Below are positions 1 through 23,525 of a stretch of 64,000 bases of DNA, piece after piece (the first letter of the stretch is position 1; each line of letters opens with the position of its first letter). The DNA is taken from assembly GCA_004431415.1 (NCBI GenBank), contig QPMI01000046.1:89815-153814 (forward strand), written 5' to 3'. The notes below the pieces were generated by a model. It saw only the letters and a list, made by a program, of their open reading frames with translations, was not told where the DNA came from and searched no databases. Source of the DNA: Cyanophora paradoxa CCMP329. Lineage: Eukaryota; Plantae; Glaucophyta. Position numbers and translations under genes: made by a program.

Positions 1-791
1 TACACGAAAGGATACGCCCAAGGGAGAATGCAAGTCAGCTCCAACGGAAGTTTTTGAAGCCGGTTGAGCAGGCGGACCGGTACGAACGGGGAGAACTCGT
101 GCAAGACGATGATGCCCCCGATCGAATTGCAGCTTTCTGGAGAGGGTACGAGAAGGCTACCAACAGGCCCGTGCATGGGCGCATTGCCCTTCTAGCGGAT
201 AATCTCAATGCGGGTTTCGGCCTCCTTCAGGGGTTTGCAGACGCCGGGGACCAGGCATCGACCTGGACCGTCTTTAGAAATGGTGAATTTGTCGAGGCGG
301 TGTTCTTCGACCACCCGACGGCAGTTCCAACACCCCCCGCGGGGTACATGGACTGGCTGTGGGCGAAATCTGGGCACCGGCGCCGGCGCCGCAGCGCCTA
401 TTTTGACGACGACGACGACGACGGTGACGACCAGTCGAGAGAGCTGTTATTCAATATCCTGATCGGGAACATCGACGCGCTTGGGCGCTTGTTCCCAGTC
501 GGCTCCGTTTCCGGCTTGCCCGAGATGTTGGGACGAGAAACCAACGAGGCCCTGGCCTTCATCGCCTGGATCCACCAGCCTGGTAATGGGATTCGGCGTT
601 GAGTGACCTGGCTTTCCTCAGCTGGAATGAACATTGACGGGGCGCCTTTTGTCGACCGGCGGAACTACGCCCGGTCGCGGCGGCCCCCGCCGCCGATAAT
701 GGCATTGGCCGGGTGTCTCTTCGTGTTAACTAGCGACGCAGCAGAGCTAGCTAGCAGGCTAGTAGCAGCGCTCGAGCTCAGGGCTAGCTGA
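1..791 (+). pseudogene. 5'-partial intronless ORF of unknown function with an in-frame TGA at 600-602
   Basis: Frame is open from position 3 to 602 with protein-like composition and an acidic D-run; the same frame continues to 791 after a single TGA. No family recognised. Confidence 0.35.
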
Positions 792-885
792 TCGCACGGG
801 CTCCGAATCCAGGTCCCATAGGGCCCTAAAGGCTATAGCTAGCATGCCGGCCCGTCGCCGCACGCTGTACGTAGCATGCCTGGCT

Positions 886-2302
886 CTAGAGCCTCTTGCT
901 AGCCCCGCCGCCCCCGGTACTGGCCGTCACCAAGGTGCTCGCAGCCCCCTTGCCAACAACGACTGTCACAGGTGGCAAATTGCCTGCCTCTGCATACTGG
1001 GAGGGCGTCAGCGGGGCGGGGCGGGGCGTCGGCGGGGCGGGGGCGGGGCGGGGCGGGGCGGGGGCGGGGCGGGCTAGAGCTAGCGGGGGCGGGGCGGGGC
1101 GGGCTAGAGCTAGCGGGGGCGGGCGGGGCGGGGCGTCGGCGGGGCGGGGCGGGGCGGGGCGGGCGGGGGCGGGGCGGGCTAGAGCTAGCGGGGCGGGGCG
1201 GGGCGGGCTAGAGCTAGCGGGGCGGGGCGGGGCGGGCTAGAGCTAGCGGGGGCGGGGCAGGGCGGGGCGAGACTATAGCTAGCGGGGGCGGGGCGGGGCG
1301 GGCTAGAGCTAGCGGGGGCGGGGCGGGCGGGGCGAGACTATAGCTAGCGGGGCGGGGCGGGCGGGGCGAGACTATAGCTAGCGGGGCGGGCGGGGCGGGG
1401 CGAGACTATAGCTAGCGGGGGCGGGGCGGGGCGGGCTAGAGCTAGCGGGGCGGGGCGGGCGAGACTATAGCTAGCGGGGGCGGGGCGGGGCGGGCTAGAG
1501 CTAGCGGGGGCGGGGCGGGGCGAGACTATAGCTAGCGGGGGCGGGGCGGGGCGGGCTAGAGCTAGCGGGGGCGGGGCGGGGCGAGACTATAGCTAGCGGG
1601 GGCGGGGCGGGGCGGGCTAGAGCTAGCGGGGGCGGGGCGGGGCGAGACTATAGCTAGCGGGGGCGGGGCGGGGCGAGACTATAGCTAGCGGGGGCGGGGC
1701 GGGGCGGGGCGAGACTATAGCTAGCGGGGGCGGGGCGGGGCGGGCTAGAGCTAGCGGGGCGGGGCGGGGCGGGGCGCACTTCAGGCAGCAGGTTCCAGTA
1801 GCGAGTGGCGACCGAGCAGAAGTTGACGAGATCATCGAGGTTTAATAACTTGACAATGCGCAGGACGGCATCATCCGGCAACTGTGGCGCGTGAGAAGAA
1901 GAGATACTGTGCGCAAAGAAGAACGCACATCATCCATACACGGCGCATGCTGTGACCGCGAGAGGCGAGGGGTCAGAGAGGCAGGCAAGCGCGCGCCGCA
2001 TGCCGCAAGCTGCTTCCGCACCATCTCGCCGGCCTCCGCCTGCGGCACGGCCGCACCGCCGGCGGCAGAACCGCTCTGAGGCCGGGAGCATCAGGGGAGG
2101 GAGAAGCGCGCGCAGAACGATGTTTGCGCACCCTCTGCTGCTCGTTCGTGTGCATCGCGGCCGCCGGCTCGCGCCCGGGCTGCAGCGGCGAACCGTCGTC
2201 ATCGCCGGGAGGCTTCCTGGCCTGCACACGCTTCGAGCGCCTCGGCTCGAAGCCGGTATCCTCCTCCTTCTCCTCCCAGCGCCGCCGCTTCTCCGGCGGC
2301 AT
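886..2302 (-). CDS. Spliced F-box protein (short, possibly truncated)
   Basis: ATG at 2302 (MPPEKRRRW). GT-AG splicing gives HAPCMDDLPDDAVLRIVKLLNLDDLVNFCSVATRYWNLLPE, matching the F-box pattern LP..vl..I...L...dl.....V...W..L. Last exon follows intron 997-1779. Confidence 0.65.
1011..1775. repeat. (GGGGC)n satellite punctuated by TAGAGCTAGC / GAGACTATAGCTAGC, inside an F-box gene intron
   Basis: Directly visible. Flanked on the minus strand by donor GTGCGC (1779) and branch/acceptor CTGAC...CCCAG (997). Confidence 0.9.
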
Positions 2303-2756
2303 GATGCTGGTGCACGCGAGGGGTACAGGGATGCGCGCGCATCGACGTACCCCCGGCGACCGACTGACTCGCCGGCGGTGCAGCGAGCGCCCCCGATCTG
2401 GACAGCGGCCCGCGGTGCGAACGATGGCGAGTGCTTCCGTGCGCCAAACGTGCGCGCTGCAGATGACGAAACGGCGACGGAGCCCGAGCCGAGACGACGG
2501 CAGCACCGCCGCCATCGACTTGTTCACGGTGCGCGGCTGCCGATAGATAACCACGCGCCGAGGCCTCAGCCGGTGCCCCGCAGCCCCTGCCGCGCGACAT
2601 CTTCTTCCGCATCGTGGCATTCTGTGCGAGCCCGCTCTACACGCTCTTCTGTGTGCTGGCCAGGGCGTGCAGAACGTTCCGAGATGCCGTGAGCGCTCAG
2701 CCAGCGGCGCCCGGGGCCCGCCCGCGCGCGCCGCGCGCGCTCATGCGACGACGCAG

Positions 2757-3684
2757 GCTCGGGCCTTCAGGGCGCCCCGCGTGATCTTCCGCGTCGAGTG
2801 CATGAAGTACCACCTGCCGTTCTCCGGCGATGTCGACATCCGCGTCGGCACCTTCCGCCAGGTGGGCGCGCCGCGCCCGCAGTGCGACCCAGCTAGCTCA
2901 TGGGGGCGCACAGGCCGTCGATGTTCTCCTCGGCCGCGTGCACATGTCGGCCGCCAGGTTTAAGAAGAAGAGGAGGACCGCGATGAAGCTCATCGTCTTC
3001 AAGCGCGACGTGGTCGAAGGCGACCCGGATCCACGCCGCTACGAGGCGAGAGGCCCCGCCCGACCCGCCCCCGCCAAGCCCGCCCCGCCCTGAGCGCCCG
3101 GCGGGCGCCAGGCTGTCAGCGCATACCTGCTCGAGGGCACCTTCACGGAGGTGACGGAGGTGGTCTTTTCCCTCGACCGCGTGGAGGGCGTCCTCGCCCA
3201 CCTGCCCCGGTTCCTCCTCGCGAGGCGGCCCGGGTCGATCGAGATCCGCTTGACGCGCGAGGGCTTCACCGGCCGCGGCAGGCCCGCGGCCTTCGCCCTC
3301 GTTGAGTACCTCATTCGAGCCGCCGCCGCAAGCCGGGGGCCTGCGGCGCTCAACTTCAGCGTCAGCACGTGGGACTACACGACCGGCAGCCTCCCGCCGT
3401 TCATCGCCGCCGCGCAGGAGGACGACTACTTCATCGTGAACACCGGCCTCACCGGGCACAGCATCCCGTCCAACGCCATCAACAGGGTGCGCTCGGGCGG
3501 GCGGGCCCCGCGGGCGGGCCGCTAAGCTCGCTGCCGCAGCTCGGTTTCAGCATCGACGGCCCTGCGCGCCCACCGGCCCCGCCGCCTCCTCCTCCTCGAC
3601 TGCGCCTCGCCCGTCGCGCCGCCCGCCCTTGCCGCCCTCGGCGCCAAGCACGTGTACTCCCCCCCCTCCGACGACTCCTCGTAG
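2757..3684 (+). CDS. Spliced gene or gene fragment of unknown function; start not identified
   Basis: In-frame exons ARAFRAPRVIFRVECMKYHLPF..., AVDVLLGRVHM..., AVSAYLLEGTFTEVTEVVFSLDRVEG... joined by GT-AG (about 2862-2913) and GC-AG (about 3046-3111) introns; high GC3. Confidence 0.5.
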
Positions 3685-4039
3685 CCCGGCGCCCGCCCCC
3701 CGTTCCCCTCCCCCCGCAGCTTGGACCGAAGCTTGAGCCGACTTTCGATCTCACAGCACGACGAAGGGGTAGGGGAGGGGGGAGAGGCTGAGGGGCACCG
3801 AGACCTCCCGGCACTTGTACAGGATGAGCTGGCGGGGCGGGCGAGCGGCCATCGCAGCGAAGAGCTCGAACAGCGGCTCGGCGAGGCGCCCCATGTGCGC
3901 CCTGCGGCGGCGCGGGCGTGTGAGCAGCGGGCGGGCGGGCGGGCGGGCGGGCGGGCGGCGCAGCGCGGCTCGCCCGGCGACATAGACGATGAGGGGGTGC
4001 GGGCACTCGAGGACGATGCGGCTGGCCGTGCGGATGATC

Positions 4040-5054
4040 AGGGGGGCTTCGGGCGCTGCAGTACGTGGCGCCCTGGGGGGCCACCCCGACGCAGCCCACC
4101 AGGGGCGTCTCCTTCCCCACGACGCACCAGCCCGGCTCGCACAGGCCCGTCTTGGTGCACTCCCAGCGCCTCACCCCCGTGGCGTTGGCGCACTGGATCT
4201 TCATCTCTCCCGGCTTGCAGCCGTTGAGGCAGAAGTCCCTCCTCGGCGTGCAGCGCGTCTCGTCGGCGCACCCCGTGATGGCGTACTCGTCGGGGAGGCA
4301 CCCGTTGTTGCAGCGGCGCAGGGGGCCCGCGCACGTGGTCTCGTCCGTGCACCCGCTGATGGGCCACTTCCCCGGCTCGCAGCGGTTGCCGCACAGCTTG
4401 TCGGCGCTGCAGACGGTCTCGTCCACGCACCCCTCGATCGGGGCCGTCCCCGGCTCGCACCCGCTGAAACACTCGCCCTTCCTGCTGCAGCGCGTCCCGT
4501 CGAGGCAGTCCTTCATCTCCACCTCGCCGGGCAGGCACTCGTTCTCGCACACCCCCGGCACCTCCGAGCACACCGTCCCGTCGAGGCAGCCGTCGATGGG
4601 GAAGAGGTGCGGGGGGCACCCGTCGAACCGCGAGCACTGGGTCGGGCAGCGCGGGTCCGCCATGTTGGGCGCGGCGGCGGGGCACCCGTTGCGGCAGATG
4701 TTCGGGTCGGCGCCGGCCGTCACGCACTCGCCGGCGGGGCTCGCCGGCGTCCGGCAGTTGTTGCGGACCGGGGCCGACGCGGGGCACCCGTTGAGGCACA
4801 CGTCGAGCCGGGGGCCTTCCGGCACGCACTCGCCGCACTGGTTCTTGATCGGGCGGTCGGTGGGGCAGCCGTTCCGGCACCCCCCCAGGGCGGTGGAGCC
4901 CGTGGGGACGCACTCGCCGCGGGGGTTGGCCGCCGTGACGCACCCGTTCCGCACGAAGTCGCGCGGGCAGCCCGTCGCCGCGCACGTCCCCTGCTCGAAG
5001 GAGCCCGCGGGGACGCACTCCTCGCAGTCGTCCTGCTCCTCCCCGGGGGGGCAC
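4040..5054 (-). CDS. Cysteine-rich tandem-repeat protein fragment (about 24-aa units GCxDxTxCS....CxNxCxPG)
   Basis: Regularly spaced Cys repeats within the 858-aa ORF. Fused in frame to a fibre-like domain upstream and continues into intron-like sequence at about 3900-3980. Confidence 0.6.
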
Positions 5055-5862
5055 GGCGTGCCGGACGCCTCTACCGACGCCGAGCTTGCGAAGAAGGACG
5101 CAACTCGCATTCTGAACAAGGCGATGTGGACGTCGCCAGACTCGGTCACCGTATCCACTGATACGACCTGGTTTGCTACCCTATAATTCGGCATCAGCAC
5201 CTTGTCGTGATCGGGCGGCAAGGAGTAGATCTCGAGGCGGATGCGGGCGAGCCGCCCTGCCGAGACGTCTGCAGGGGCGATGGGCCAGCCCTTGTAGTAA
5301 TTCGAATTCGACGTCTCGTTGTATTTGACGAGCACGCTATTCTGCACGGTGGAGGTCTGCCCGCCACGGGAGTGAGTCAGGCTCCCCCCCCAGAGTGGAA
5401 ACGGCTGGGAATCTTGAGTCGTCTTCAGAGACTCGAACCCCGCCCAATTCCAAGCATCGTTGATCGAGACCAGCATGCGGATCGCGCCGAGGGCGTCCGA
5501 CACGTCCCTGTCGAGCATGCACCAGATGGAGACACGAACGACACGGTACTCGCTGAAGTAGTTGTGCGGGATAAGGAGGCTGCTCGCGTTGGGGGCCAGG
5601 TCACCCGCAGCAAGGAGGCGCTCGCCGACGGAGGGGCCGACGACGGGGCCCCGGACGATAAGACCCCCGTCGAGGAAGAGGTCGCCGTTGTTGGAGAAAG
5701 CGGCCTTGCCCCCCGCAAACGTCAGGGCAGTCGACGAGGGGATCCGCAGCCGCGCGTGGTGGCCGAACACGCCGCCTCCCACAAGCACATTGAGGTCGGG
5801 CGAGTAGGCGGCGGCGCTGAAGTTGATTGGAGCCTCCATCTCGGTCCAGCTGATACCATCCG
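5055..5862 (-). pseudogene. Virus fibre/receptor-binding-like protein fragment (Asp-box end TDGISW plus C-terminal beta domain)
   Basis: Intronless and lower in GC. TDGISW...YSPDLNVLVGGG is followed by a domain ending GWPIAPADVSAGRLARIRLEIYSLPP...SSASVEASGTP; two paralogous fragments lie nearby. The viral-fibre call is an inference from motif style. Confidence 0.45.
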
Positions 5863-5938
5863 TGGGGCGCCAGTCCTCGGGGTCGAGCGCGAAGGAGTAG
5901 ACGTAGATCGGGCGCTTGGGCACGGTGGTGTGGTGCTC
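5861..5938 (-). pseudogene. Micro-fragment of an NCLDV-type double-jelly-roll major capsid protein (C-terminal motif)
   Basis: Encodes EHHTTVPKRPIYVYSFALDPEDWRPT, matching the conserved NCLDV MCP motif HHT..P...IY.YSFAL.PE..QPSG. Confidence 0.75.
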
Positions 5939-5949
5939 CGACGCCCGGG

Positions 5950-6262
5950 GAGGGACCGCAATCACCCTGCAGGCCGCCCCCGCGGACCCAGCGCTCCGGG
6001 ACGACGGGTGGCCGGTCTCATACGCGGACGTCCGGGGCGGCCGCCTCGTGCGCATCGAGCTCGAGATCTACACTGTGCCCCCTTCGCACGCAGACACCGC
6101 CCTGGTTGGCATCCTTGTCGATACCCACAGCGTTGGACCCGACGAGGTCCCCTGTCACACCACCGGCCAGCTGGCCCTGTCCGCCTCTGCCACCCTCCTC
6201 CACGGGCTCCGCATCCAACCCTCGGCTGGGCGCAGGTTCCTTTCAGGCTCGTACTGCGTTTT
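5950..6262 (+). pseudogene. Second, inverted paralog fragment of the fibre-like C-terminal domain
   Basis: GWPVSYADVRGGRLVRIELEIYTVPPSH aligns with minus-strand GWPIAPADVSAGRLARIRLEIYSLPPDH (about 5205-5290). Confidence 0.65.
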
Positions 6263-6298
6263 GGGGCCATTGCCCGCCTGTTCCCGGGGACGGCGGGG

Positions 6299-6379
6299 GG
6301 CGTGCCGGACGCTTCAACTGATGCCGAGCTCGCGAGGAAGGATGCAACGCGGATCATGAACAAGGCGATGTGGACGTCG
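6299..6379 (-). repeat. Third paralog fragment: 81-bp diverged direct repeat of 5055-5135
   Basis: DVHIALFMIRVASFLASSASVEASGTP versus DVHIALFRMRVASFFASSASVEASGTP; differences are mostly synonymous. Confidence 0.85.
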
Positions 6380-6399
6380 GCAAGCAGGTCGGGGCGGCT

Positions 6400-7040
6400 G
6401 CAGCCGGTTATTCAGCACGAATGGGGGACATGGATGAGGGCGAAATCAACACGCACATTCTCGGGAATGACATGGGCCGGTCCACCGCTTAATTGCTACT
6501 TTGCAGTGACGGCGAGGGGCGATGATGTTGAAGACGAATACTCAATCGCATCTGACATGTTCGTCCTGGGCAGCCGTGATGGAGGGCATTCGTGGGAGCC
6601 CACGGTTGAAGCCCGGCAAGGATGGGATGACAGCGATTTTAACCCAGAAGGATTCAGATGCATCGTTGCATCGGGAGATGGCCATGTCTTCGCCTTGAGT
6701 CATCCCACGAATTCCTACTGGGGATCCCAGCACCATGTCAAAATCATCGAGACTGTTGATGGGTCCACATGGTCGGTTGTCTCAAACGTGACATGCTCGA
6801 GCAATGACGGTAATTATTATGAATCTTCCTATGCCATTTACAGGGTTCTCATCTATGTGCCCGAGCTGAAGGCAACTTTCTACTTTGACGACTACAATGC
6901 GTACAGGCGGTCTGATGGGGGGGAATGGGAGGGCGGGTCCCTCGTGGATGGTGTCGACGTAATTCGCTGGTGGGGTGCAACATCCATCTTCTACTCCCCA
7001 GTGCTAAAGAAGCTCGTCGCCCTGTGTTCGTGGTTCGTAC
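6400..7040 (+). pseudogene. BNR/Asp-box beta-propeller (sialidase-like fold) fragment
   Basis: Asp-box-like motifs SRDGGHSW, TVDGSTW, RSDGGEW; YVPELK and YSPVLKKLVAL blade motifs; no own start or stop. Confidence 0.65.
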
Positions 7041-7205
7041 GCACGGAAAACCGCGGCCGGCTTGTGACGGGGCCGCCGGCTGGCAGGACTCGCCGGGGGC
7101 GGCGGCGGCCTGGGCGGAGTGCCCCCAGTGCCCCCGCGGCGTCTACAACTGCTGCCCCCCGCGCCCGCCCCAGCGCCTCGTCATCGAGCCGTGAGGGCGG
7201 GGCCT

Positions 7206-7505
7206 CTACCGCCGGGCCGCCGCGGCGGCGGCCGCCGCCGGGCGCTTCGGCGCCCCCCTCCGGCTCGCCGCCCGCTTGGCCCTCTTCGCCTGCTCCAGCT
7301 CCCGCACGCCCTCTAGTGTGTACTCGCTCAACCGGGCCCTCTGAAGAATCCTTTCCATAGCCTGCGTCGCCGCCCGCTGGGCCCTGAGCGCGGACCACTC
7401 GGGGTGCAGGCTGCGGACTCGCAGGTACTGCGCCAGGTACAGGTGCTGCAGGGCCGACTCGCTGAGGGCGCGGGGCCGCCGCGCGGGGGGGCGCTGGTAG
7501 GTCAT
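7206..7505 (-). CDS. Small basic intronless protein (99 aa), unknown function
   Basis: Complete ATG-to-stop ORF with a short AT-rich leader (AAATAAACAGCC-ATG), tightly packed between neighbours in virus-like fashion. Confidence 0.5.
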   Translation of the reverse strand: MTYQRPPARRPRALSESALQHLYLAQYLRVRSLHPEWSALRAQRAATQAMERILQRARLSEYTLEGVRELEQAKRAKRAASRRGAPKRPAAAAAAAARR

Positions 7506-7543
7506 GGCTGTTTATTTGCTGCGAGAAAAAACGGCGCCCTGCT

Positions 7544-8206
7544 CTAGTAAATTATCAGGACCAGGCCGTCGCCTCCGGTCCGCACGTTGTAAACCGTGGA
7601 CCCCTTCCCGCACGGGGAGACGTAGTCCGGGTCTGTGGCGTTGCCGGGGGTGTCATATGAGGCGGCGGATGTCGTACCACCGGTCACGACCGCGCTGCCG
7701 TAGTAGCTGGAGCCCCCGCCGCCGCCGTAGTAACCGCCACCGCCGCCGTAGTAGCCGCCGCCGCCACCGCCGCCGTCTGCCCCCGCGATGTCCCCTCCCG
7801 TGTACTTCGAGCCGGCTGTGCCGTTTGCCCCGGCGTCACCGCCTGCGGCCTGGGTGCCGCCGCCGCCCCCGGTTTTGGACATAATTACTTGGATACCCGT
7901 CAGGCCGCCGCCGCCGCCGCCTCTCTGGAAGTAACCCCCGCATGCCCCACCGCCCGCCGTGATGATGTCGTCGGTGCCTCCCTGGACCCGGATGGCGGAC
8001 CGCCCGCCCCCGCTCCCGACGTTCGTCTGGGACGCCGTGCACCGCCCGCCCCCGCCGTAGGTCGCGAGGTGCGCGTTCGGGTTGGGCCTGCCGCCCTGCC
8101 CCACGATGATCACGTAGGTCGCCCCCGGCGTTATCAGCGGCTTCCACTGCTCAACGTCGCGCTGTCGCCGCTGCTCCTCCTCCTGCTGATGCTCCTGCTG
8201 CTGCAT
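7544..8206 (-). CDS. Glycine-rich domain (ALK/LTK GRD-like) fragment with an unrelated Q/E-rich N-terminus
   Basis: TPGATYVIIVGQGG...GGGRSAIR...IITAGGG...GGGGGYYGGGGG...GGGGSSY...GGDGLVLIIY* is typical of this domain; apparent junction near 8138. Confidence 0.75.
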   Translation of the reverse strand: MQQQEHQQEEEQRRQRDVEQWKPLITPGATYVIIVGQGGRPNPNAHLATYGGGGRCTASQTNVGSGGGRSAIRVQGGTDDIITAGGGACGGYFQRGGGGGGLTGIQVIMSKTGGGGGTQAAGGDAGANGTAGSKYTGGDIAGADGGGGGGGYYGGGGGYYGGGGGSSYYGSAVVTGGTTSAASYDTPGNATDPDYVSPCGKGSTVYNVRTGGDGLVLIIY

Positions 8207-8457
8207 CGCGACGACGACGACGATGCGCGCGCGAGTCAGTTCGTTGTTGCGCTACCCCCCCCCACTCCCCCCCCCCTCCTGCATCAGTGTCGTCGTCAGC
8301 CGGCCAACCGGCAGCCGCACCGGGCGCAGACGCCGTGGTGTATGAGACATCCGACGAAGCCGGGCTACAGGATCGTCTTCAGCAGCATCAGCAGCGGCGG
8401 CAGCATGCCGAGCGAAGTCGACGCTGAGGTGGTCAGGTTGGGACTGGTGCGCGCGAT

Positions 8458-9415
8458 TCATCTGCCTGAATCCGCCATCCGCCTGATGATGCACGCGCGC
8501 CGGCCCGCAGCCCCGTGCGGGGCGCCGACGGCAGCGTCGGGGGCGCGGCCGGGCGCGGCCCGGTCCGGATCCAGCGCCGCCTCGGGGCGGGTGCGACGAC
8601 GGCCGCCGGGGAGGGTCGATCGGCGGTGATGGGGCCGTCGGCCGGCGGGCGCCACGGGCACCGGCGGCGGGGCGGGGCGGCGGGCGGGGCCGGGGCGGGC
8701 GGGGCGGGCGGCGATGACGGTCGTGATGTCGGCGGCGGGGAGGTGGGCGCCGGGGCGCCGGGTGCCGGGGGGCGGGGGCCGGGGCGGGCGGGACGGGGGC
8801 CGAGGGGCGGGCGGCGGGGACGGGCGGGGACGGGCGGGCGGGGGCCGGGCGGACGGGACGGGGGCCGAGGGGCGGGCGGCGGGGACGGGGCGGGGACGGG
8901 CGGGCGGGGCCGGGGCGGACGGGACGGGGGCCGAGGGGCGGGCGGCGGGACGGGCGGGGGCGGGGGACGGGGCCGGGGCGGCGGGCGCCGGCTGCTGGGT
9001 TAGCGCCGGGCCGGCCGCGGGCCGGTGCCGGAGCGGCGGCCGGGCGGGCGCCGGGGCGGGAGCCGGGTCGAGGGCGGGGGTGGGGCCGGGGGCGCCGGGG
9101 TCCGGACCGACCTTGAGGCGGAGTTTCAAGTGGTTGGAGGCGGGGTCGGCGGCGGCAGGCGGGCCGGCGGGAGGCGACGGAGAGCGCGGGCGCTTTGCCG
9201 GGGGCGGCGCCGACAAGTTGAGGTTCCTGAAGATTTCCTCACGAAGGCGGCCCCGGCACGCTGTGCAGGAGGGGCTGCTGCCCCCGTCGAACCGGGAGCG
9301 CATCATCGCGCACCCCGTGACGTATTGGTCGATCATGTCCAGCATCGACTTGAACTGACCGGAGCAGTGCGCGTGCACGTGCTTTCCGCAGCGCACCCCC
9401 TTGCACCTGAGCATG
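8458..9415 (-). pseudogene. Fragment with a partial PHD/RING-like Zn finger followed by a Pro/Ala-rich tandem repeat
   Basis: CKGVRCGKHVHAHC...CTAC; repeats of the type RPSAPVPSARPP at about 8750-8970. Confidence 0.4.
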
Positions 9416-9594
9416 AGGAGCACCAAGGAGGCGATGATGAACTGCGCCTCCCTCCGGTACCTGCTGGTGAACGTGGGCTCGCGGATCTCCAACATCGCCC
9501 TGGAGCATGCGGCGGCCGAGGCGGCCGCGGGGCCGCAGGCGGCGGCCCCGTGGTGGGCGGCGGTCGCGGCGGCCCAGGCGCAGGGGGTCGCGGC

Positions 9595-10295
9595 GGGCGT
9601 GCCCCGCCTGCGGCGTGCACTGGGTCCAGGCGGCGTCCGACTCGTGCCTCGCCTGCCGCCTCGGCCGCGATGCGGCCCCGCGCTTCGGCGACCCGGGGCG
9701 GCACGCCGAGGAGGCTGCTGCCGTCGGGGATGCCCTCGCGGCCTCCGCCTGGCGCCCCGTCTCCCCCGACATCGTCTTTGCGGCGCGCGGCTCCTGTGCC
9801 CCCGGGAAAGGCGCCCTCTACCTCCCCGATTTCGTCTTCTCCCTCCCGCACGCTATCTTCTGCCTCGACATCCTCACCAACTGCCACCGCGACGAGCCCC
9901 CCAGCTTCCGCGAGATGCGCGAGGACACCTACCAGAGCCTCACCACAATGGAGCGCCCCGTCGTCTTCCTGTACACCAACTTCGGCTCCTACTTGACCGC
10001 CGGCGCCCGCCTGCGACGTCAGGAGGACCCTCCCGGCACACGCTCTCTGCCATTTCGACCCCCCCCTATGCACTCGCCCGCCGCGCCGCTGAGAGGAAGC
10101 CTCAGCATCAATTACCCCCACATCTTCGTTCGTCAGCTGGAGGAGTCGGGCCTCCTCGCGGCCCTGCGCGCCCGCCCGCCCCGCCGCATCGTCATCGGAA
10201 GCTTCAAATCCTCCGCCGCGGCCGCGGCCGCCGCCTTCCCCAGCCTCCTCGCTCTCGGTGCCGAGGTTCAGCTAGCCGAGGTTGAGCTAGATTAG
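9595..10295 (+). CDS. Zn-ribbon plus degenerate PD-(D/E)XK restriction-like endonuclease domain of the kind common in giant viruses
   Basis: CPAC...CLAC followed by LPDFVFSLPHAIFCLDILTNCH...RPVVFLYTNFGSY, similar to RPDF.FD....VIVEVDE.QH...PVVFIRFNPD; the catalytic E-x-D is not conserved. Confidence 0.55.
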
Positions 10296-11159
10296 AGCCT
10301 TCTCCATTCATTCACGGCACATAAACAGCCCCTGTAAAGAAGGGATACCAGCGGGCGAGGACCCGGGCCCACCACGCGTGGGTCTCCGCCTCGGGCTCCT
10401 CCACGAGCGGCATGATGAATGCGGCAAGGGCGGGGGGCGGCGCAGGGTAGATCCCGTCCACGAGCGGAGCGCTGGGGGCCGGCCGAGTCGGAGAGCCTCT
10501 TCGGCGCCGTGCGGGCCAGCAGGCAGCAGTAGTTTAATGCCGTGTGATATCAAAACCAATCGCGTCACCTGCACCTCCCACTTTTTCCCAGCCAATATTA
10601 TCCATGACCGCAACGGCCGCTGGGCGGGGCGTTTAAGTCGACCTGCGCCTACGGCACTTGCGGCTCTGGACGGCGGCCTTCTCCATAATCGCTTCCTCGG
10701 CCGGCTCGAGTGCGCTCATCAGCTCCCTCTCGCGCCGCTCCTCCTTGATCTGGACGTGGGTCCTGCGCCGCTTCTTCTCGGGCGTGGGGGCGCGGGGGTC
10801 CTGGTCCTCGCACTCGGGGCGGGCGTTCGGGCGGTCGCAGTAGTAGCTGACGACGACGGGCCCGGCGCCGGCACTGCGGCGTTTGGCCTGGAGTTTGGCG
10901 GCGTCCATGCGGGCGAGGAGGCGGAGGGGAGTCAGGACGCGGGCGGGGTTGGGGCGGCAGCGGCCGCGGCGGCCGCGGCGACGGCGGCGGCCTCGAAGGC
11001 CGGCCCTGGCGCGGCGGCCCCGGCAGCCCCGGCAGCCCCGGCAGCCCGGCAGCTCCGGCCCCAGCCCCGGCCCGGCAGCAGTTGTGGGTGGCCCGATCCT
11101 GCAGCTGTGGCAGCAGGCCGCGGCGCCCGCTTCCACAACCATTGAGATCCTGCGACAAG

Positions 11160-11309
11160 CAGCCGTCGTTGGGCGGGCACGACAGCGTCCGTCAGCGAGG
11201 TCCAGCGTGGCTTGGCGGCGAGCCTGGCCGTCTCGATGTACATCGCCATGTCGGAGTCCTACCAGCTGCTGCTTGCGGGCGGGGCCACGCCGCAGCTGGA
11301 GGAGCAGGA

Positions 11310-11351
<42 letters not shown>

Positions 11352-11628
11352 ACCGACGGGCAGCGCGGCTGCGGGCGCGGTCCCGCAGCCGGGGGAGGAG
11401 GCGGCGTCGGTGGCACCCCCCCGGCCGCGCGCCACGGAGTGCGTCAAATGCCGGGAGCGCCTCCCCGCGGTGGCCCTGGTCCCGTGCCGCCACGTCCCCG
11501 TCTGTGTCGAGTGCTGGGGCCCGCACGTGGCCGGGCGCACCTTCAGCGACGAGGGGGCGGGCATCGCCTGCCCCCACCCCGGCTGCGGCCTCCGCGTCGA
11601 CGGCGCGCTTGTCGTGGTCCTGCCTTAG
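11160..11628 (+). CDS. C3HC4 RING finger protein, C-terminal part
   Basis: CVKC...PCRH...CVEC...CPHPGC, ending VVVLP*; intronless. Confidence 0.8.
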
Positions 11629-11675
11629 GCAGCTGCAGCGCGTGGTGTGTGTGTGTGTGTGTATTTAATTTTCCA

Positions 11676-11930
11676 CTACAACACGGCGCTAGCTAGAAGC
11701 ATCGATATCCGCTCTTCTTCGGCCGTGGCCCGCTCGAACTCCTGGCGCTCTTCCGCTGCCCTCGGCCCGTCATCGTCGTCGACTGTACCGGAACCAAGGA
11801 GGCGGTGCAGGCGGTCGATGCTCACGGGTTTGTGGGGTAGGCCGTAGAGCAGGTGCCTGATGATGAACTGGCGCTCCTCAAGGAGGCGCTGAATGCGGGC
11901 GGGCGGCCGGCTGGAGTGTATCGCTTCCAC
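11676..11930 (-). CDS. Small hypothetical ORF or fragment
   Basis: Protein-like helical sequence converging on the RING ORF across a short TG/AT-rich spacer. Confidence 0.3.
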   Translation of the reverse strand: MEAIHSSRPPARIQRLLEERQFIIRHLLYGLPHKPVSIDRLHRLLGSGTVDDDDGPRAAEERQEFERATAEEERISMLLASAVL

Positions 11931-12189
11931 CGCCCGCGGGCTCAGGAGGGTGGCGGAAGGGTGGCGCCACCCGACGTCCAGGGCGGACCACCACGCCCCC
12001 GGGTTCGCCCGAATGAGGCTCGCGATGAGGGGCGTGCCCCACCTTTTCCGGCCGCCGAGCCGGGGGAGCCCGGGGGGGGGCCGGGGGGGGCCGCAGGGGG
12101 CCCGCCGGGGGGCCGGGGAGCCCGGGGGGGGGCCGTGAGGCCCGCCGGGGCCCGGGGAGCCCGGGGGGGGCCATGGGGCCCGCCGGGGG

Positions 12190-15035
12190 GCGACTGGTTC
12201 AGCCCCGCTGTGAAGGTCGACGGGTTGCGCACCGAGTAGCCTTTCGCAGTGCCAGGCTCCTTGGGCTGAATGGCTGCACAGGGAATTAGGCAGGAGACTT
12301 TCTGAAGATTCCGTTGTGATTCACCTAGGTGTCCTCGGATCTGTTGTAATTCGCGAATCTGTCAGCTCGCGAATTCTAATAATAAAAAAACTAAGCTTCA
12401 AGTTCCAAGGCACCTCGAAAAGAGGCATGAACTGCTGGTGCTGGTGCTCTAGACAGTACCTGCAGCATCCCGCTCAGTCCTGGATCCAAAAACGCGACGA
12501 ACACTCAAACGGACAAAGTCGTCTGCCAAGTAGGGCTTTCGTCCCATAGGCCGAAGCGCGTGTTGGCAGTTGGATCGAAAGGAGTGCCCGGTTTAGATGT
12601 CGAAGCGGTGGCCGGATACGCTCGAAGATTGTACTGGAGCTCCCTAGGCTTTTGTAAGGTATCATAACGGAGCGGACAAAGCAAGAGCTGACCCGGCGAT
12701 GTGCCCTAGCCACCTTGGGAACGCCGAACCACCCGCCTTCACGTTCGGATAAAAAACAGAACTTGAATCGGGTAGAGTACGGCCTGGATGGCAAGGCTCG
12801 ACACGCCGAAAACAGAAACATGCATCTACTCGACACTAGATGCGTACCAGTCTCTGATTTAAAAATCGGGTAGTTCGCGGCAGTGGAATGCCGCTCCCTG
12901 CATCGAAAATCGAATGCATTAATTCTCGTTGGTAGAGAAAAGAGTTTCGTGTAGCAAGCCTACGGACCCGAACCACTTGCTGAAGCCGAGTGCGAAATCT
13001 GCCACAATTGCAATGCGATATTGATGGGAAAACACAAAGCCAGGACAGAGAAGACGCACTATCCAATCCAGGGGCCGCGACCTTGTTCCAGCTCGGATCG
13101 TACGTTGTTGCGAGCTGCGATATAACTCAGAGTGCGCCATGCTTTTCGATTACGGTCGAAAACTGTGCGCACTGAAAACAAGCCTGTTGTAGAAGAAGAA
13201 GAACGCAAAGATGTCAAAGATGGCTTTCAAAAAAAGCGGGACAGAGGACAGAGGTGAAACACGGGACAGAGGTGAGCTCACCGTCTGTGACATCCGTACG
13301 CCGAATCCTGCACATGGTTTAAGTAGAGCTCTGTGCAGATCGCAAGCTTTTCGTACCTCAGGCACCACTGGAGTGCAGAATTCGAAGTCGCGTCGGCGTG
13401 GGTTATCACCGAGAAAACCAAGAGAGGAAAGGCACGCACTGCATCGTACACGAGAATTGGTTGATCGCATTCGACGTACACGTCAAGGGTTTTGCTTGTA
13501 GGGTCTGAATTGCGCATGCTGTGTCAAAATTCGAGAATTCGCGTGCTGGTGCAAGTTTGAAAGACAAGGGACCGACCTCGTTTGGTACCATCTACGATCA
13601 CATTTTGTTTGCAAATGCCGAAAAGCGGAAAATCCTTCGGGCGAGTCTTTCGCGGGCATGTGCATTAATTCCAATGCCGTGCTCGACTGATTTGAAGGAA
13701 ATGTGCATGTACGTGTACCTTATAAACACCGCTAACTTTCGTCGGCAGCTGGAAGGCCACCCCCACCTTCTCCTGTGCTTTGCACTCTTTCGCATACGCT
13801 GTCGTAACCGTCGTGGCGCAAGGCCAACCCTTTCCGCTGTCGCCACGATTCGATTTTACAATGGCAACCTGCAAAACCCGTACTTGGTCGAGAGACAGGC
13901 ACGATCGCGAGAGCAAAGTTCATATATATATATATATATATATATCATCATGGGCACCCGAAATTCGAGGTTGGTAGGAATCGTGTCATTAAACCCTCCG
14001 GCTGTTTTGAATCCACTCTTTGTATCCGGAAAGAAAAGTCTGAAGACCTTCATTTCGATTTTGAAACAAGTGTGCATGTACATGTCTTAGCAACGCACGT
14101 GAAGTAGACAGAAGTGATGTTGATTGGCGCATTCATGTACCGCATACTGCGCGAAGATTTGAATAAATAGTATTGGCAAATAGGCTTCTAATTAAGCATG
14201 TCATTTTAGGCTTCCGAAAGCACAATTGTAAATTTACTTACCAGTAGAAGAAATCATCTGCAAGACGTCGAAGAGCAACGATTATGGGTATGGATGCAAC
14301 CAATTTCCGAAATATCGATACTCACTTGTCGGTCCGCGGGCCTCGATGACCTTCCCATCTGCCTGGTGGGTCGCAGGTTCTCCCGTGTCCGCATCGGATA
14401 AGAGGCAGTATTGGTTGTAGCGATTTTGTGTATCCAATTCCCAGTAATTTCCAATTCGAGCTTGGTCTGCGCATGCGCATGCGCAGTGGTTATATTAAAC
14501 GTTTTTAACACAGGAGTTGCTGGAGTGAAACGGGGCTAGGCGCACGCATGTAGTAGCTGCTCTCTTGCGAACTTTTCGTCAATCCCGCCGGTTCGCCGCC
14601 GGCCTTAGTGCCATCTCCCTTCAAGTAAGTCGAGATGATTGGCTTGTCGCCTGGTGCGCCGTCCGAGAAGCGGATGCCTGGTCGGCCCTGAACACCACTG
14701 CGCCGTCGCAATGCGCCAGCCAGATGAGCTATCGTCTAGAAAACCAAATTCTCGCGCTCCTCTATGTTCGCGCGCTCCTCTATGTTCGGAAGCTTATGCA
14801 TGTTCGGAAGCATTTGCACGATGCACGGGCACAGAATTCGAAGCAAGATCTAGATCTAGAGGACGCACACGGGGCCCATGTCTCCAGCTGTGCGGGGATC
14901 TTGACCCGCCGCCGCGTGCGAGACGGACAACACGAACGCCGACGCGACGAAGATCGCCAAGATGATCGAGGCCAGGCCGCTGGGCCGCGGCCGGCCGGCG
15001 ACCACGCGCCGGCAGGAGCCGGGCGCGCCCGCCAT
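12190..15035 (-). pseudogene. 3'-truncated inverted paralog of the giant receptor gene (N-terminal exons only)
   Basis: MAGAPGSCRRVVAGRPRPSGLASIILAIFVASAFVLS, SGVQGRPGIRFSDGAPGDKPI and SKTLDVYVECDQPI match plus-strand exons at 39786, about 40060 and about 41250. Runs into GC-rich patchwork at about 12.2 kb. Confidence 0.8.
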
Positions 15036-15508
15036 GGACGTGCGAGACCTCCGCCGATCAAGCCGCGCGCACTCCAACGCACGCGGGCCTGCAGCCAGCT
15101 ACAGCTGCCCTAAGCCTGCTCAGCAGCTGCAGCTGCAGCTGATGCAGCTGATGTCGATATAAGGGGAGCGAACGCCCACGAGTTGCAGGGACCGTCGCAC
15201 GGGCCAGTCTAGGCTAGGGCCGCTAGGCTACCCGACGACCTCTTACCGCACTACGGTAGTACCGTAGAGTCGGCGTAGACCCGTAGTACTGTACGTTCAA
15301 CGGTTCTCGACTCTGAGAGACTCTGAGATCTGCAGGCCGCCTGACTCTAGAGGCTGCAGCTGAGGCCGTACCGCCGGCCCGCCGCGGCCGCCGGGCTTCT
15401 ACTAGGCTAGCTTCTATCTTCGTACGCCGTGACGGTAGACTATCTACTAGTACTACGCCGTGTGACGGTACTACCGTTACAGTACCGTAATATAAGATGT
15501 CTAGACTC

Positions 15509-15549
15509 TAGAGTGTCTAGAGACTGTGGCCGGTAATTCACCAAAAAAC
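15509..15549. mobile_element. Solo TIR of the MITE family seen at 36481-36832
   Basis: GTGTCTAGAGACTGTGGCCGGTAATTCACCAAAAAA is the reverse complement of about 36783-36818. Confidence 0.7.
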
Positions 15550-17114
15550 ATATTTCGGCAAAACCTGAAAAATGTGCCAAGATTGTGGTTCGTCGCCGAG
15601 TCGGCATCATATTTTCGGCAACACATGTACAGCCAGTCCGCCTAGGCGGCGGGTACGTTGATCCCTCTTCTGCCATACATCTGCACAATTCTGGCACAAT
15701 TTATAATTACAGCCGCTGAGCAATTACTAGTACAGTAGTAGTACTCAGTGATTGGTCATAGTCTGGTACCGGTATAGCTGGCCGAGGCTGCTGGACGAAT
15801 GGGCTGCTCCCAATGTAACCAATCCCGGAGTCCGTGCTTTTTCGCGCGTCCGACGGTCTGATCATGATTATCACTGAGTATTGGTGCGATCATCGGATTC
15901 GGTCAATTTCGGTGGAATCGGTGCACGTGACCGCGCGCCGCGTACGGGCGGCGGCGTACCGTGCATGACTCAGTGACGGACCGGGACCTCGGTGACTCGG
16001 CGTCGAGTCGGCGACGAGTACTAGTCGGCGACTCGGCGTGTGCAGCTGCAGCCTGCAGCCTGCAGCTGCAGGCTGCAGCCTGCAGGGCCATGTCACCGGC
16101 CCATGTGCACGTGCAGGCTGCAGCCTGCAGCTGGCCATGGCCATGGCTGCCGCAGTGCAGCCTGCGCTGGCAGCGCTTCTAGATCTCCGAGGCTCAGGGG
16201 GCTGACAGGGGCCCGGCTTCAAAAAAGCTTCGGGGCAACTTAAGCTTGGCAAGTTCGGGCCCGCGCCGCCGCGCGCGCGCGACTCCGGATCCCCGGGCCG
16301 CGAGGGCTGCCAGCATTATGGCAGCATAGCGCGTGGCGGGCGCAGCGCTAGCTATATAGCAGCCTGCGGCCGCGCGCAGCTACTAGCTCCGTATATACGC
16401 GGCCCGCGAGCGCCCGGCCTCGCCGCGGCCGAGTCGTTCCCTCGAGCTCGCGCTCGCGGCCCCGCCCCTCGCGATCGTCCGCGCGCCGTGCGAGGAATCG
16501 CCGAGGACACGGACGTGATCCTGAGCTCGATCACTCGCGCGATTGCAGCGCGCGCGGACGCAGCTGCAGCCTCAATCGCGAGAGGTCCATCGGCCGTCGC
16601 TGTGCCACGTCCGATGCCTCGCGGCGCACGATTGCAGTTGGCAAAGAGCTCGAGCGGGTGCATGCGGCTTTGCGGCGCCGACGGCGACGCCGAGCGCAGC
16701 GGCTCGCCGCCTCTGGCCGAGGACGCGTGGCCGCGGGGCGCGGCGCTGGAGGCGGAGCGGGCGGCGCTGCTGCAGCGAGTGCGCGGGGCCCGGGGCGCTG
16801 CAACAGGGGAAGCCCGTCCTTTGGAAGAAGACTTCGCTTGCCCTCGCCGCCGACGACGTCCTCAAGCGCGGCGGCCTCCTTGACAAGCTTCTCAAGCTCG
16901 AAGCCGTAAGCGGCCCGCCCCGCTCCTAGCTCCCGTACCTTCCTCCCCTTCCCTCCCGCTCTTAGCACACCCCCCCCCCCCCCCCCCCCTCCCCCCCACA
17001 CACACCTCGGGCCGCCCTCCCGCGGCCGCCCCGTCCCGCCCCGGCCGCCCCGCTACCTCCCTCCCCTCGAGCTCCACCCTCCCTCCCTCCCTCCCCCCTC
17101 TTCTCCCCCCCCTC

Positions 17115-17440
17115 CTAGGCCGCCCCTACCCCTAGGCCGACCCCTACCCTAGGCCGCCCCTATAGCTACCCTAGACCGCCCCTACGTCGCCCCCTACCCC
17201 TAGGCCGCCCCCTACCCCTAGGCCGCCCCCTAGGCCGCCCCCTACCGGTAGGGGTAGGGGGCGGCCTAGGGGTAGGGTAGGGGGCGGCCTAGGGGTAGCT
17301 ATAGGGGCCGGCCTAGGGGGCGGCCTAGGGGTAGGGGTCGGCCTAGGGGTAGGGGGCGACCTAGGGGGCGGCCTAGGGGTTATTAAAGGGGCCGACCTAG
17401 GGGTAGGCCTACCCCTAGGCCGCCCCCTACCCTTAGGCCT
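17115..17440. repeat. Fold-back satellite of CTAGGCCGCCCCTACCC-type units
   Basis: Units switch orientation at CTACCGGTAG (about 17241-17250) and again near 17405. Confidence 0.8.
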
Positions 17441-17454
17441 ACCCCAACGCGGAG

Positions 17455-22500: not shown

Positions 22501-23525
22501 TCATTCGTCGCGCTCTCTTCTGGCTGAAAAAGGTTTGCGGCCCATTGTAATATTCTCTTTCATGATCAGGTGTTTGCAACAGCGGGTGAGACCTTGTGCG
22601 CGCGCTTCGCAGAACAATATTCTGTATAAAAACATCGACATCAGCGAGGAGAATTTGGCCACATACAATCGGAACGTCATGGTTGTCCCGCAGGCAGGCG
22701 ACGTTGTGCATACAGCGGACGGGCCCGTCAATTCCTCCGAAATAATTGAGTCTGCGAAGCATTTGCCGCTCGACGAGGATCCCGAAGATGCAAAGACGGG
22801 TGCGCAAAGATTCAAAAAAGTGGACCGCCCTTACCTGACCTCTGTTCATGATTGCCACGGCAGGCCTGCAATCGAGGACCTCCACATGGGAGTCCTCACG
22901 CGCATCCGAGACGCCGGCCTCGCGGATATCGAACTTCAAGACCTTGTCTACCAGATGCGCGGCGGGAGCGAGCAGCGCGCCAGCCGCGCGGCTCTGCAGG
23001 CGCTCGAGGCGGCGGGCCGCCTCACCATGCTCTCGCAGCAGGGCCCTCTTCAGGACCGGCGCCGCTGGCTGCCGCTCACCCGCACGGCCGACTTCCGCCC
23101 CGACCCCCTCCAGAAGGCCTGGATCGCCTACGTTTACGGCGAGCCCTCTGCAGACAGCACCATCATCTTTTAGCCAGCTGTTCAGGGTTAGCGGTAGTCC
23201 GTGCGAACACAGTTCATGCGCAGCGTTTTTCCGCTCCAGAACAATCTTTCTTATACAGTGCGCTGAATTTGGCCTTTCGTTGAGCCTTTTCTTTATTCGG
23301 TTTGATCTCAGCGCCTGATTGGGTCTTTTCTACATCTGCTTATCGGGCCTTTTCTATTTTTTCAATCATAATCTGTGTTTATCTTTACACTTCAACCTGC
23401 CGCGCGCACTGGGCCGGGGTCGATCTACATTTGCCCCGTGCATGTTCGTGCCACTACGACTCTTTCATTAGATCCCGGTTCCCCCCTTGCACCCCCGGCG
23501 CGCCAAAACGCGGCCGGGCCCCTAG
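19524..23525 (+). mobile_element. Helentron/Helitron2-like element A (about 4.0 kb) with cargo gene
   Basis: 5' subTIR TGCAAGGGGGGAA at 19529-19541 forms a hairpin with 19557-19568. Internal tandem repeats at 19765-20000. Perfect 3' subTIR at 23479-23491, GC hairpin at 23494-23518, CTAG|T at 23522-23525. Both ends are shared with element B. Confidence 0.75.
20450..23173 (+). CDS. Multi-exon C2H2 zinc-finger plus CXC-like Cys cluster protein (cargo of element A)
   Basis: CSTC...H...C, CRQC...HEAAH and CDHEGC...HKEKKH fingers; WTCACC ribbon; CSCKVACKSN..CTC..CVC cluster; long final exon to the stop at 23173. Start is uncertain. Confidence 0.6.

What the first reader, a model, noticed from the sequence alone, without database searches (positions are those of the whole stretch)
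5055..11930. Scrambled mosaic of short giant-virus-like gene fragments in both orientations
Seen: pieces of roughly 80-1000 bp from unrelated intronless genes are joined end to end and alternate strands. They include an MCP motif, three fibre-domain paralogs, an Asp-box propeller, a Gly-rich domain, a PHD-like piece, a nuclease and a RING finger; most lack their own start or stop. A decaying provirus would normally stay collinear. Inference: either a shattered and re-ligated endogenous viral element, or a locus that archives viral fragments as templates for antisense or small RNAs (piRNA-cluster-like memory).
Basis: partly seen in the sequence, partly recalled or inferred. Interest (0 to 1): 0.85.

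Follow-up and report, generated by a model that had tools for sequence, protein, structure and literature searches.

The report
Patchwork of giant-virus gene scraps
A read-supported stretch of a likely algal genome is a patchwork of 80-1,000-base gene pieces in both orientations, including a scrap of a giant-virus capsid gene, likely stitched together from broken viral DNA by DNA repair and likely inert, though it is untested as a source of antiviral small RNAs.

Summary
The mosaic is real. Single short-read contigs of 3 of 3 DNA runs span 3965-8252 without a substitution. It starts near 4045, left of the finding. In 4045-8208 lie ten stop-free pieces of 78-1,010 bp, with four strand flips and third-position GC from 0.63 to 1.0. 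Only one is diagnostically viral: 27 codons of an NCLDV major capsid protein, cut at both ends. Four neighbours form two paralogue pairs with no database relatives; 'fibre' is unsupported, the Asp-boxes are real. Several pieces are native multi-gene blocks with their own stops, one resembles a host gene family, and the window lacks about 10 bases in 8.27-11.3 kb, so frame switches there are unreliable. No resident copy of the paralogue pieces was seen at 80% or more; the capsid scrap has a 93% copy elsewhere. Best reading (0.6): a complex insertion of shattered giant-virus DNA joined by end-joining repair, like complex numts and the chimeric viral relics of Acanthamoeba. A small-RNA archive is not excluded (0.12) but has no positive evidence.

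The parts
3751..4044 (-). 3' end of an intron-containing host-type gene that lacks its 5' part; left neighbour of the mosaic
   Evidence: sequence reading; weak likeness to the last exon of the transcribed gene at 3541-3681 (23 of 2000 shuffles reach the score)
4045..5054 (-). A: intronless Cys-rich repeat piece, no start or stop of its own; outside the finding's coordinates but part of the mosaic
   Evidence: third-position GC 333 of 337, 0 internal stops; internal repeats; no relative in viral contigs
5055..5138 (+). B: 28-codon piece, paralogue of the start of F, likely inverted between A and C; joint with C lies somewhere in 5139-5186
   Evidence: 86% identical to 6299-6382, all 9 third-position changes silent on +; strand scores favour + in 3 of 4 tests; the minus reading is not fully excluded
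5187..5859 (-). C: tail of a propeller-like repeat plus an uncharacterised C-terminal domain, cut at both ends
   Evidence: 0 stops in frame, 8 in the opposite frame; only weak propeller-repeat hits among 1.84 billion representatives; paralogue of E
5860..5942 (-). D: 27-codon internal fragment of an NCLDV major capsid protein gene
   Evidence: Pfam PF04451 E=1.3e-4; PDB 8h2i E=0.0018; up to 18 of 30 residues shared with intact MCPs; a second copy elsewhere, 54 of 58 nt, whose match ends at 5860
5943..6240 (+). E: paralogue of the C-terminal domain of C, in opposite orientation; right end approximate
   Evidence: tblastn E=3e-8 from 5943; 39% identity
6242..7030 (+). F: helical N-terminal segment plus part of an Asp-box beta-propeller, no stop; ends approximate
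   Evidence: two Asp-boxes, 0 of 10000 shuffles; 12 stops in the opposite frame, 0 in frame; no homologue found
7060..8130 (.). G-H-I: likely native three-gene block: 3' end of a + gene (stop 7192-7194), complete 99-codon - gene (7505-7206), 3' part of a - Gly-rich gene (stop 7544-7546)
   Evidence: 11-bp and 38-bp spacers, AT-rich stretch before the ATG; ALK_LTK_GRD E=1e-8; PHROG hits of unknown function
8131..8208 (-). J: Gln/Glu-rich 5' end of another gene, fused in frame to the Gly-rich piece
   Evidence: ATG at 8208-8206; joint bridged by three contigs
8252..9500 (-). K-L-M: Pro-rich gene or pieces with a partial zinc-finger (PHD/RING-like); possibly one gene broken only by window indels
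   Evidence: zf-RING-like E=0.018 and 0.067; window lacks bases here
9500..10040 (+). N: zinc-ribbon plus putative DUF559-like nuclease piece
   Evidence: Atlas lead 0.86 only; second copy elsewhere over 9600-9993 with 48 substitutions and 8 gaps
10041..10295 (+). O: 3' end, with stop, of a gene resembling the spliced host family at 3541-3681
   Evidence: 87% over 38 nt, E=9.5e-6; protein score reached by 9 of 2000 shuffles
10312..10909 (-). P and Q: 3' end of one gene and a likely complete 92-codon gene, with an AT-richer spacer between them
   Evidence: diverged copies elsewhere from 10737 on
10930..12050 (.). R (+, C3HC4 RING, stop 11626-11628) convergent with S (-, stop 11676-11678); likely native pair
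   Evidence: RING E=3.8e-6; 47-bp spacer

Best explanation
The locus is a patchwork of stop-free gene pieces, one of them from a giant-virus capsid gene, that was likely built when broken giant-virus DNA, with some host-type DNA, was joined end to end by non-homologous or microhomology-mediated repair, and that likely now sits as inert, silenced DNA. Shown: the joints, the capsid fragment, the paralogue pairs, the mixed orientation, the lack of internal stops, and no close resident copy of pieces B, C, E and F among one run's contigs. Inferred: viral origin of the pieces other than D; the repair route (donors are missing, so microhomology could not be measured); a single or few events; silencing. 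The run of paralogous propeller pieces beside a capsid scrap is most simply read as local shattering of a virion-gene neighbourhood, either of incoming virus DNA or of an endogenous copy that was consumed in the event. The host is likely the glaucophyte Cyanophora paradoxa, inferred from intron style and the style of a gene identifier (both recalled, not verified).
For: Joints bridged without substitution in 3 of 3 DNA runs. Capsid fragment cut on both sides; a 93% second copy stops matching at the 5860 joint. 0 internal stops in 11 of 11 pieces scored in 3961-8208, third-position GC 0.63-1.0. No shared joint motif: 26 of 200 random sets reach the observed sharing; no terminal or joint repeats. 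Second copies at about 88% and 93% match the 85-95% partial duplicates, GC shifts and chimerism described for Acanthamoeba viral relics (PMC12210455 section 9). Multi-fragment insertions with blunt or microhomology joints are the known fate of foreign DNA in nuclei (PMC6215612 section 6). Methylated giant-virus elements are reported in C. paradoxa (PMC12344493 section 9).
Against: Only 1 of about 18 pieces has a diagnostic viral match; the rest have no relatives or generic domains. Pieces as short as 78-84 bp are finer than the few-hundred to several-thousand-nt blocks described in Acanthamoeba. Four successive joints keep the third-codon-position phase (1 in 81 post hoc; 5 of 8 overall, p=0.088), which random ligation does not predict. 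Five adjacent pieces are capsid or likely virion-surface genes, a bias that needs the extra assumption of a local donor. CpG observed/expected is 0.94-1.10 over 4-12 kb, so there is no mutational trace of long methylation.
Confidence: 0.6

Rival explanations
1. The shuffling happened in the virus. A giant virus carried a region where propeller/attachment paralogues and other gene scraps recombine or accumulate, and the region later entered the host as a block.
For: Two paralogue pairs within 2 kb, one pair inverted. Phase is kept over four joints, leaving an 862-codon open minus frame.
Against: No recombination-site repeats at the joints. No recombinase domain among the pieces scanned. No virus with these pieces: 5 of 5 protein or alignment scans of viral contigs confirmed no relative, and 0 of 68 capsid loci have neighbours like the other pieces. 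Host-type pieces lie at 3751-4044 and 10041-10295.
Confidence: 0.15
2. The locus is an immune archive. The host captures short viral pieces next to a transcribed gene and turns them into double-stranded RNA and siRNAs that target related giant viruses.
For: Pieces are short, undecayed, from several genes and biased to capsid and likely surface genes. No resident donor for B, C, E and F at 80% or more. C. paradoxa encodes Dicer, Argonaute and four RdRP homologues and makes abundant small RNAs (PMC3700990 passages). A spliced, transcribed gene points into the locus from 2385-3738.
Against: Mixed orientation, whereas the mosquito EVE cluster is unidirectional and antisense (PMC7161354 abstract). 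No long inverted repeat to fold a hairpin, and no repeat-spacer layout. Multi-gene native blocks and host-like pieces are poor designs for an archive. PIWI proteins are not known in this lineage (recalled).
Confidence: 0.12
3. Most pieces are host or Polinton-like-virus genes scrambled in an unstable, repeat-rich region, and the capsid scrap is a minor passenger.
For: Only D is diagnostic. O and the left neighbour resemble a spliced host family. RING, zinc-finger and Gly-rich domains are not virus-specific. Glaucophytes hold many Polinton-like viruses (156 in a supplement row of PMC12220804). Mobile-element-like repeats follow at 12-27 kb.
Against: Compact intronless blocks with 11-47-bp spacers differ from the intron-rich host genes of the window. 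Third-position GC of C and F (0.83, 0.61) is below host exons (0.91, 0.94). D is NCLDV-type, not a Polinton-like capsid.
Confidence: 0.09
4. The 862-codon minus frame (3479-6067, gene model P0003) is a working chimeric gene.
For: The frame is open across several joints and is annotated as a 732-aa protein.
Against: It reads E and probably B antisense. It has no relatives over its length. Once the phase is kept, few stops are expected in short GC-rich antisense pieces (0-2 per short piece).
Confidence: 0.03
5. Misassembly or amplification chimera.
For: The runs laid are flagged as possible sources of the DNA; three gaps between contigs are unbridged.
Against: De novo contigs of runs from 2019 and 2024 carry the joints identically, and differ from the window by indels elsewhere, so they are not mere copies of it.
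Confidence: 0.01

Closest known systems
Degraded, chimeric giant-virus endogenizations of Acanthamoeba (PMC12210455; sections 9 and 18 and passages read)
   Same: Partial viral chunks, chimerism, abrupt composition shifts, partial duplicates at 85-95% identity, mobile elements nearby, no terminal repeats.
   Different: Here the grain is finer (down to 78-84 bp), pieces carry no internal stops, paralogues abut in both orientations, and methylation is untested.
Complex and mosaic numts/nupts of plants (PMC6215612; abstract and section 6 read)
   Same: Several unrelated fragments of foreign DNA ligated into one few-kb insertion without a repeat scaffold.
   Different: The donor is viral, not organellar, and is not on hand, so blunt or microhomology joints could not be scored.
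Methylated giant endogenous viral elements of Cyanophora paradoxa (PMC12344493; section 9 and passages read)
   Same: Likely the same host; Nucleocytoviricota-derived DNA in gene clusters.
   Different: Those are described as neighbourhoods of viral genes; this locus holds 27 codons of one hallmark gene and scrambled pieces. The locus identifier is not in the one supplement file held.
Flamenco-like EVE piRNA cluster of Aedes aegypti (PMC7161354; abstract read)
   Same: Fragments of viral genes gathered at one locus.
   Different: That cluster is 143 kb, unidirectional, antisense-transcribed and PIWI-linked; this one is 8 kb, of mixed orientation, with no small-RNA data.

Membership tests
Giant endogenous viral element (intact or latent) | Nucleocytoviricota hallmark sequence | tested here: met
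   27-codon MCP fragment
Giant endogenous viral element (intact or latent) | Long collinear run of whole viral genes with several hallmark genes | tested here: not met
   8 kb, pieces of 78-1,010 bp, one partial hallmark; flanked by spliced host genes and repeats
Degraded chimeric giant-virus relic (Acanthamoeba type) | Chimeric joins, composition shifts, partial duplicates at 85-95% | tested here: met
Degraded chimeric giant-virus relic (Acanthamoeba type) | Methylated, heterochromatic, silent | not testable with these tools
   no methylation data on hand; locus identifier absent from the supplement held
Complex foreign-DNA insertion (numt/nupt type) | Several non-contiguous donor fragments in one insertion | tested here: met
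   at least 8 joints in 3961-8208, bridged by contigs
Complex foreign-DNA insertion (numt/nupt type) | Blunt or 1-10-bp microhomology joints against the donor | tested here: inconclusive
   donors not found; only indirect hints (phase kept at 5 of 8 joints, p=0.088; a short shared G/C run at the A/B joint)
piRNA cluster (flamenco-like EVE cluster) | Fragments in one orientation relative to a long precursor | tested here: not met
   6 minus and 4 plus pieces in 4045-8208
piRNA cluster (flamenco-like EVE cluster) | Abundant PIWI- or AGO-bound small RNAs from the locus | not testable with these tools
   only assembled contigs were served; short RNAs are lost in them
Polinton-like virus or virophage | PLV/virophage-type capsid, terminal inverted repeats, integrase | tested here: not met
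   capsid scrap is PF04451 type; no inverted repeat pair bounding the locus among the 25 longest of 77 listed; no integrase domain in the pieces scanned
Shufflon / invertible tail-fibre cassette | Repeated recombination sites at cassette ends and an adjacent invertase | tested here: not met
   joint word sharing at chance level (26 of 200); no recombinase hit
CRISPR-like or repeat-spacer archive | Constant repeat between captured pieces | tested here: not met

The most novel reading that the evidence does not exclude
A glaucophyte keeps dedicated loci where short pieces of giant-virus capsid and attachment genes are captured and read into siRNAs by its Dicer/RdRP/Argonaute pathway: a heritable, PIWI-independent anti-giant-virus memory in the sister lineage of plants.
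Probability: 0.12. Interest if true: 0.88.

Novelty: new variant of a known kind. Interest (0 to 1): 0.45.

Why it matters
If the best reading holds, the locus is an unusually fresh, fine-grained snapshot of how giant-virus DNA is shattered and re-ligated in a protist nucleus. It records an uncultured virus with a propeller-protein family absent from the collections searched, and it warns that gene models such as the 732-aa P0003 can be chimeric artefacts of such debris. If it instead yields small RNAs, it would be a direct handle on whether protists keep sequence-specific memory of giant viruses; the likely host has the RNAi genes, and small-RNA and methylation studies of it are published, so the test is cheap.

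Tried and rejected
No whole genome was held, so donors and sister loci could not be searched genome-wide. No RNA holder was listed for 4900-8300. Homologue searches without result: F among longer proteins, 0 of 1232 candidates; N, 0 of 112; capsid scrap, only the window's own model among 14 candidates; C against 1.84 billion representatives, self plus 9 low-complexity or weak repeat hits; Atlas, none for C; viral contigs; metagenomes; prokaryote genomes; phages. NCBIfam and PDB gave only chance-level rows for F and N. Cluster look-up could not be made. Single-sequence folds of F and C had mean pLDDT 38.5 and 30.6, and the fold search of F was meaningless. A first coding-segmentation model was too weak, calling most of 6-12 kb non-coding. 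Rfam found nothing in 1-27000. A suspected likeness of S to M was rejected (500 of 2000 shuffles), and C versus F is not significant (176 of 1000), so that B/F and C/E are two ends of one family is inference. The reading of B as the minus-strand continuation of C was tested: E gives it no support (1786 of 2000 shuffles) and 3 of 4 strand scores favour plus; 1 of 12 training pieces in that test was out of frame. The capsid loci were selected by a motif that holds the Trp, so they do not place the virus. Literature searches listed no description of this locus or of a fine-grained giant-virus fragment archive in a protist; the library lacks most subscription papers, and a term search of PMC13242883 found none of six terms.


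Full report
Setting. The window comes from a GC-rich, intron-rich eukaryote. Contigs of run X22, guessed to be RNA, cover 710-3738 in spliced pieces that belong to two divergent genes with F-box-like motifs (Pfam E=5.5e-4 and 0.14). Repeats follow at 12-27 kb and ordinary host genes beyond. The window's own gene model P0003 is listed by EukProt as tig00000180_g13630.t1. That identifier style and the introns suggest Cyanophora paradoxa; this is recalled, not verified. No whole genome was held.

Is it real? Yes. Of 3 DNA runs laid, all 3 give one contig across the left part: X1 3965-8272 and X20 3965-8252 with no other letter and no gap, X8 3965-8641 with no other letter and 4 gaps. Further contigs cover 8969-9899, 9964-11291 and 11361-12249. 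The runs are flagged as possible sources of the DNA, and the three gaps between contigs are not bridged in the rows shown. The contigs are longer than the window by 4, 3 and 3 bases in 8272-8641, 8969-9899 and 10993-11291, so same-strand frame switches in the right half may be errors of the window. I therefore count joints only in 3961-8208.

Anatomy. From left to right: A, Cys-rich repeats (4045-5054, -); B (5055-5138, +); C (5187-5859, -); D (5860-5942, -); E (5943 to about 6240, +); F (about 6242-7030, +); G (+), H and I (-), 7060-8130; J (8131-8208, -). None of the 11 pieces scored (these 10 and the left host-type neighbour) has an internal stop. There are 4 strand flips in 9 adjacencies, not a strict alternation. 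Third-position GC differs sharply: 333 of 337 in A, 186 of 224 in C, 131 of 216 in the propeller part of F, against 0.91 and 0.94 in two host exons. G-H-I is a native-looking block with an 11-bp convergent spacer, a complete 99-codon gene and an AT-rich stretch before its ATG. In the right half, stops at 10295/10312 and 11628/11676 are convergent and also look native, and Q looks complete. So the mosaic has two textures: internal scraps of 83-780 bp in 5.05-7.03 kb, and blocks of about 1 kb with native spacers to the right.

What the pieces are. D is 27 codons of an NCLDV major capsid protein: Pfam PF04451 E=1.3e-4, PDB 8h2i MCPv1 E=0.0018 and 8rbs E=0.6. Of 68 loci fetched with the motif, 64 printed rows place it inside open frames of up to 566 codons, mostly about 65-75 codons before the end; 4 of 4 such frames tested are capsid proteins by Pfam. 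In D both flanks of that motif are missing. B and the start of F are 86% identical with 9 of 12 differences at third positions, all 9 silent on the plus strand. Because B shares its third positions with the minus frame, I tested the strand: 3 of 4 scores favour plus, and E gives no support to the minus reading. Either way the same 84-bp block lies once inside minus-strand and once inside plus-strand coding DNA, so one copy is an inverted scrap. C and E share a domain (39% over 80 columns; 0 of 2000 shuffles) and face opposite ways. F has two Asp-boxes (0 of 10000 shuffles). That B/F and C/E are the two ends of one propeller family is inference (C versus F: 176 of 1000 shuffles), and the label 'fibre' got no hit anywhere. 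I is an ALK/LTK-type Gly-rich domain, R a C3HC4 RING. L is a weak zinc finger (E=0.018) and N only a DUF559 lead (0.86). O resembles the last exon of the neighbouring spliced gene (87% over 38 nt; 9 of 2000 shuffles). So 1 of about 18 pieces is provably viral, and one is probably of a host family.

Donors. At 80% likeness, run X20 laid 41 records on 4950-7300. Apart from the locus itself the longest is a 3,240-nt contig that matches 5860-5917 at 54 of 58 bases and stops at the D/C joint; the rest shown are 46 nt or shorter and GC-rich. Depth is flat over B, most of C and most of F (a filter can drop contigs, and 81 rows were not shown). N has one further copy (48 substitutions and 8 gaps over 9600-9993) and Q has diverged copies. 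So the genome seems to hold relatives of the capsid scrap, N and Q at about 88-93%, but no near-identical template. That argues against recent copying from an intact resident provirus. It fits capture from an incoming virus, or a shattering event that consumed the donor. No relative was confirmed in viral contigs, metagenomes, prokaryote genomes, phages or the protein collections, and none of the 68 capsid loci has neighbours like the other pieces.

Mechanism. There is no repeat scaffold: word sharing among 7 joints is reached by 26 of 200 random sets, and no joint or terminal repeats were found. The best-supported route is end-joining of broken DNA into a complex insertion, as for mosaic numts and nupts (PMC6215612, abstract and section 6), with the later fate described for Acanthamoeba: chimeric, shattered, partly duplicated and silenced viral chunks (PMC12210455, passages and sections 9 and 18). 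Methylated giant-virus elements are reported in C. paradoxa (PMC12344493, passages and section 9); its one supplement file held does not name this locus. The repair route and silencing are inferred, not shown. Two things stay unexplained. First, four successive joints keep the third-codon-position phase even across strand flips (1 in 81 post hoc; 5 of 8 overall, p=0.088). This leaves the 862-codon open frame behind P0003, and it may reflect easier microhomology between in-phase, GC3-rich DNA. Second, five adjacent scraps are capsid or likely surface genes. CpG is not depleted (0.94-1.10), which with the lack of stops suggests a young event.

The archive idea. C. paradoxa has Dicer, Argonaute and four RdRP homologues and many small RNAs (PMC3700990, passages), so siRNA production is possible. 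But the known EVE cluster of Aedes is unidirectional and antisense (PMC7161354, abstract), while this locus is mixed, holds native multi-gene blocks and host-like pieces, and has no long inverted repeat. Small RNAs could not be examined. I give it 0.12. Other texts seen: PMC12220804 (passages, section 13 part 1 of 2, supplement search), which shows that glaucophytes hold many Polinton-like viruses; bioRxiv 10.1101/809541 (passages); Ostreococcus outlier-chromosome papers as a search listing only. Supplements of bioRxiv preprints were not seen and could hold locus-level methylation data.

Verdict. A real, fresh and unusually fine-grained patchwork with a giant-virus capsid scrap; a new variant of a known kind. 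Interest 0.45; 0.88 if it proves to be a small-RNA archive.

Noticed in passing
window 710-3738: Two divergent spliced genes with F-box-like motifs (1657-1929 minus, Pfam E=5.5e-4; 2551-2781 plus, E=0.14), both covered by contigs of a run guessed to be RNA; one intron (about 997-1779) is a 30-bp G-rich tandem array.
   Followed up: partly
window 3479-6067 (-): The 732-aa gene model P0003 reads through the capsid scrap, piece C, piece B antisense and the Cys-rich piece: a likely chimeric annotation artefact now in public protein sets.
   Followed up: partly
window 8272-8641, 8969-9899, 10993-11291: The window lacks 4, 3 and 3 bases against short-read contigs.
   Followed up: partly
window 3-602 (+): An intronless frame of at least 199 codons, open at the window start, third-position GC 0.68, no family hit; may be another foreign piece.
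   Followed up: no
window 51056-64000 (+): A very long gene of tandem units about 1,060 nt long (11-12 copies) with fibronectin type III domains (Pfam E=1e-7).
   Followed up: no
window 19524-19632 and 24809-24917: A 109-nt direct repeat, 98% identical, 5.3 kb apart, around a 364-codon frame with no Pfam hit (22079-23173): a possible mobile element.
   Followed up: no
window 14976-15089 / 39732-39845 and 15513-15548 / 36783-36818: Long-range inverted repeat pairs (114 nt at 97%; 36 nt at 100%), likely copies of non-autonomous repeats.
   Followed up: no
window 17114-17445: A palindromic array of CCTAGG-rich 12-18-nt units with a 90-nt inverted repeat.
   Followed up: no
L054, L056, L045, L041: Metagenomic capsid-protein genes (44-48% GC loci) with the same DPEDW variant of the motif as the window's scrap; two share 18 of 30 residues, the best found.
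   Followed up: partly
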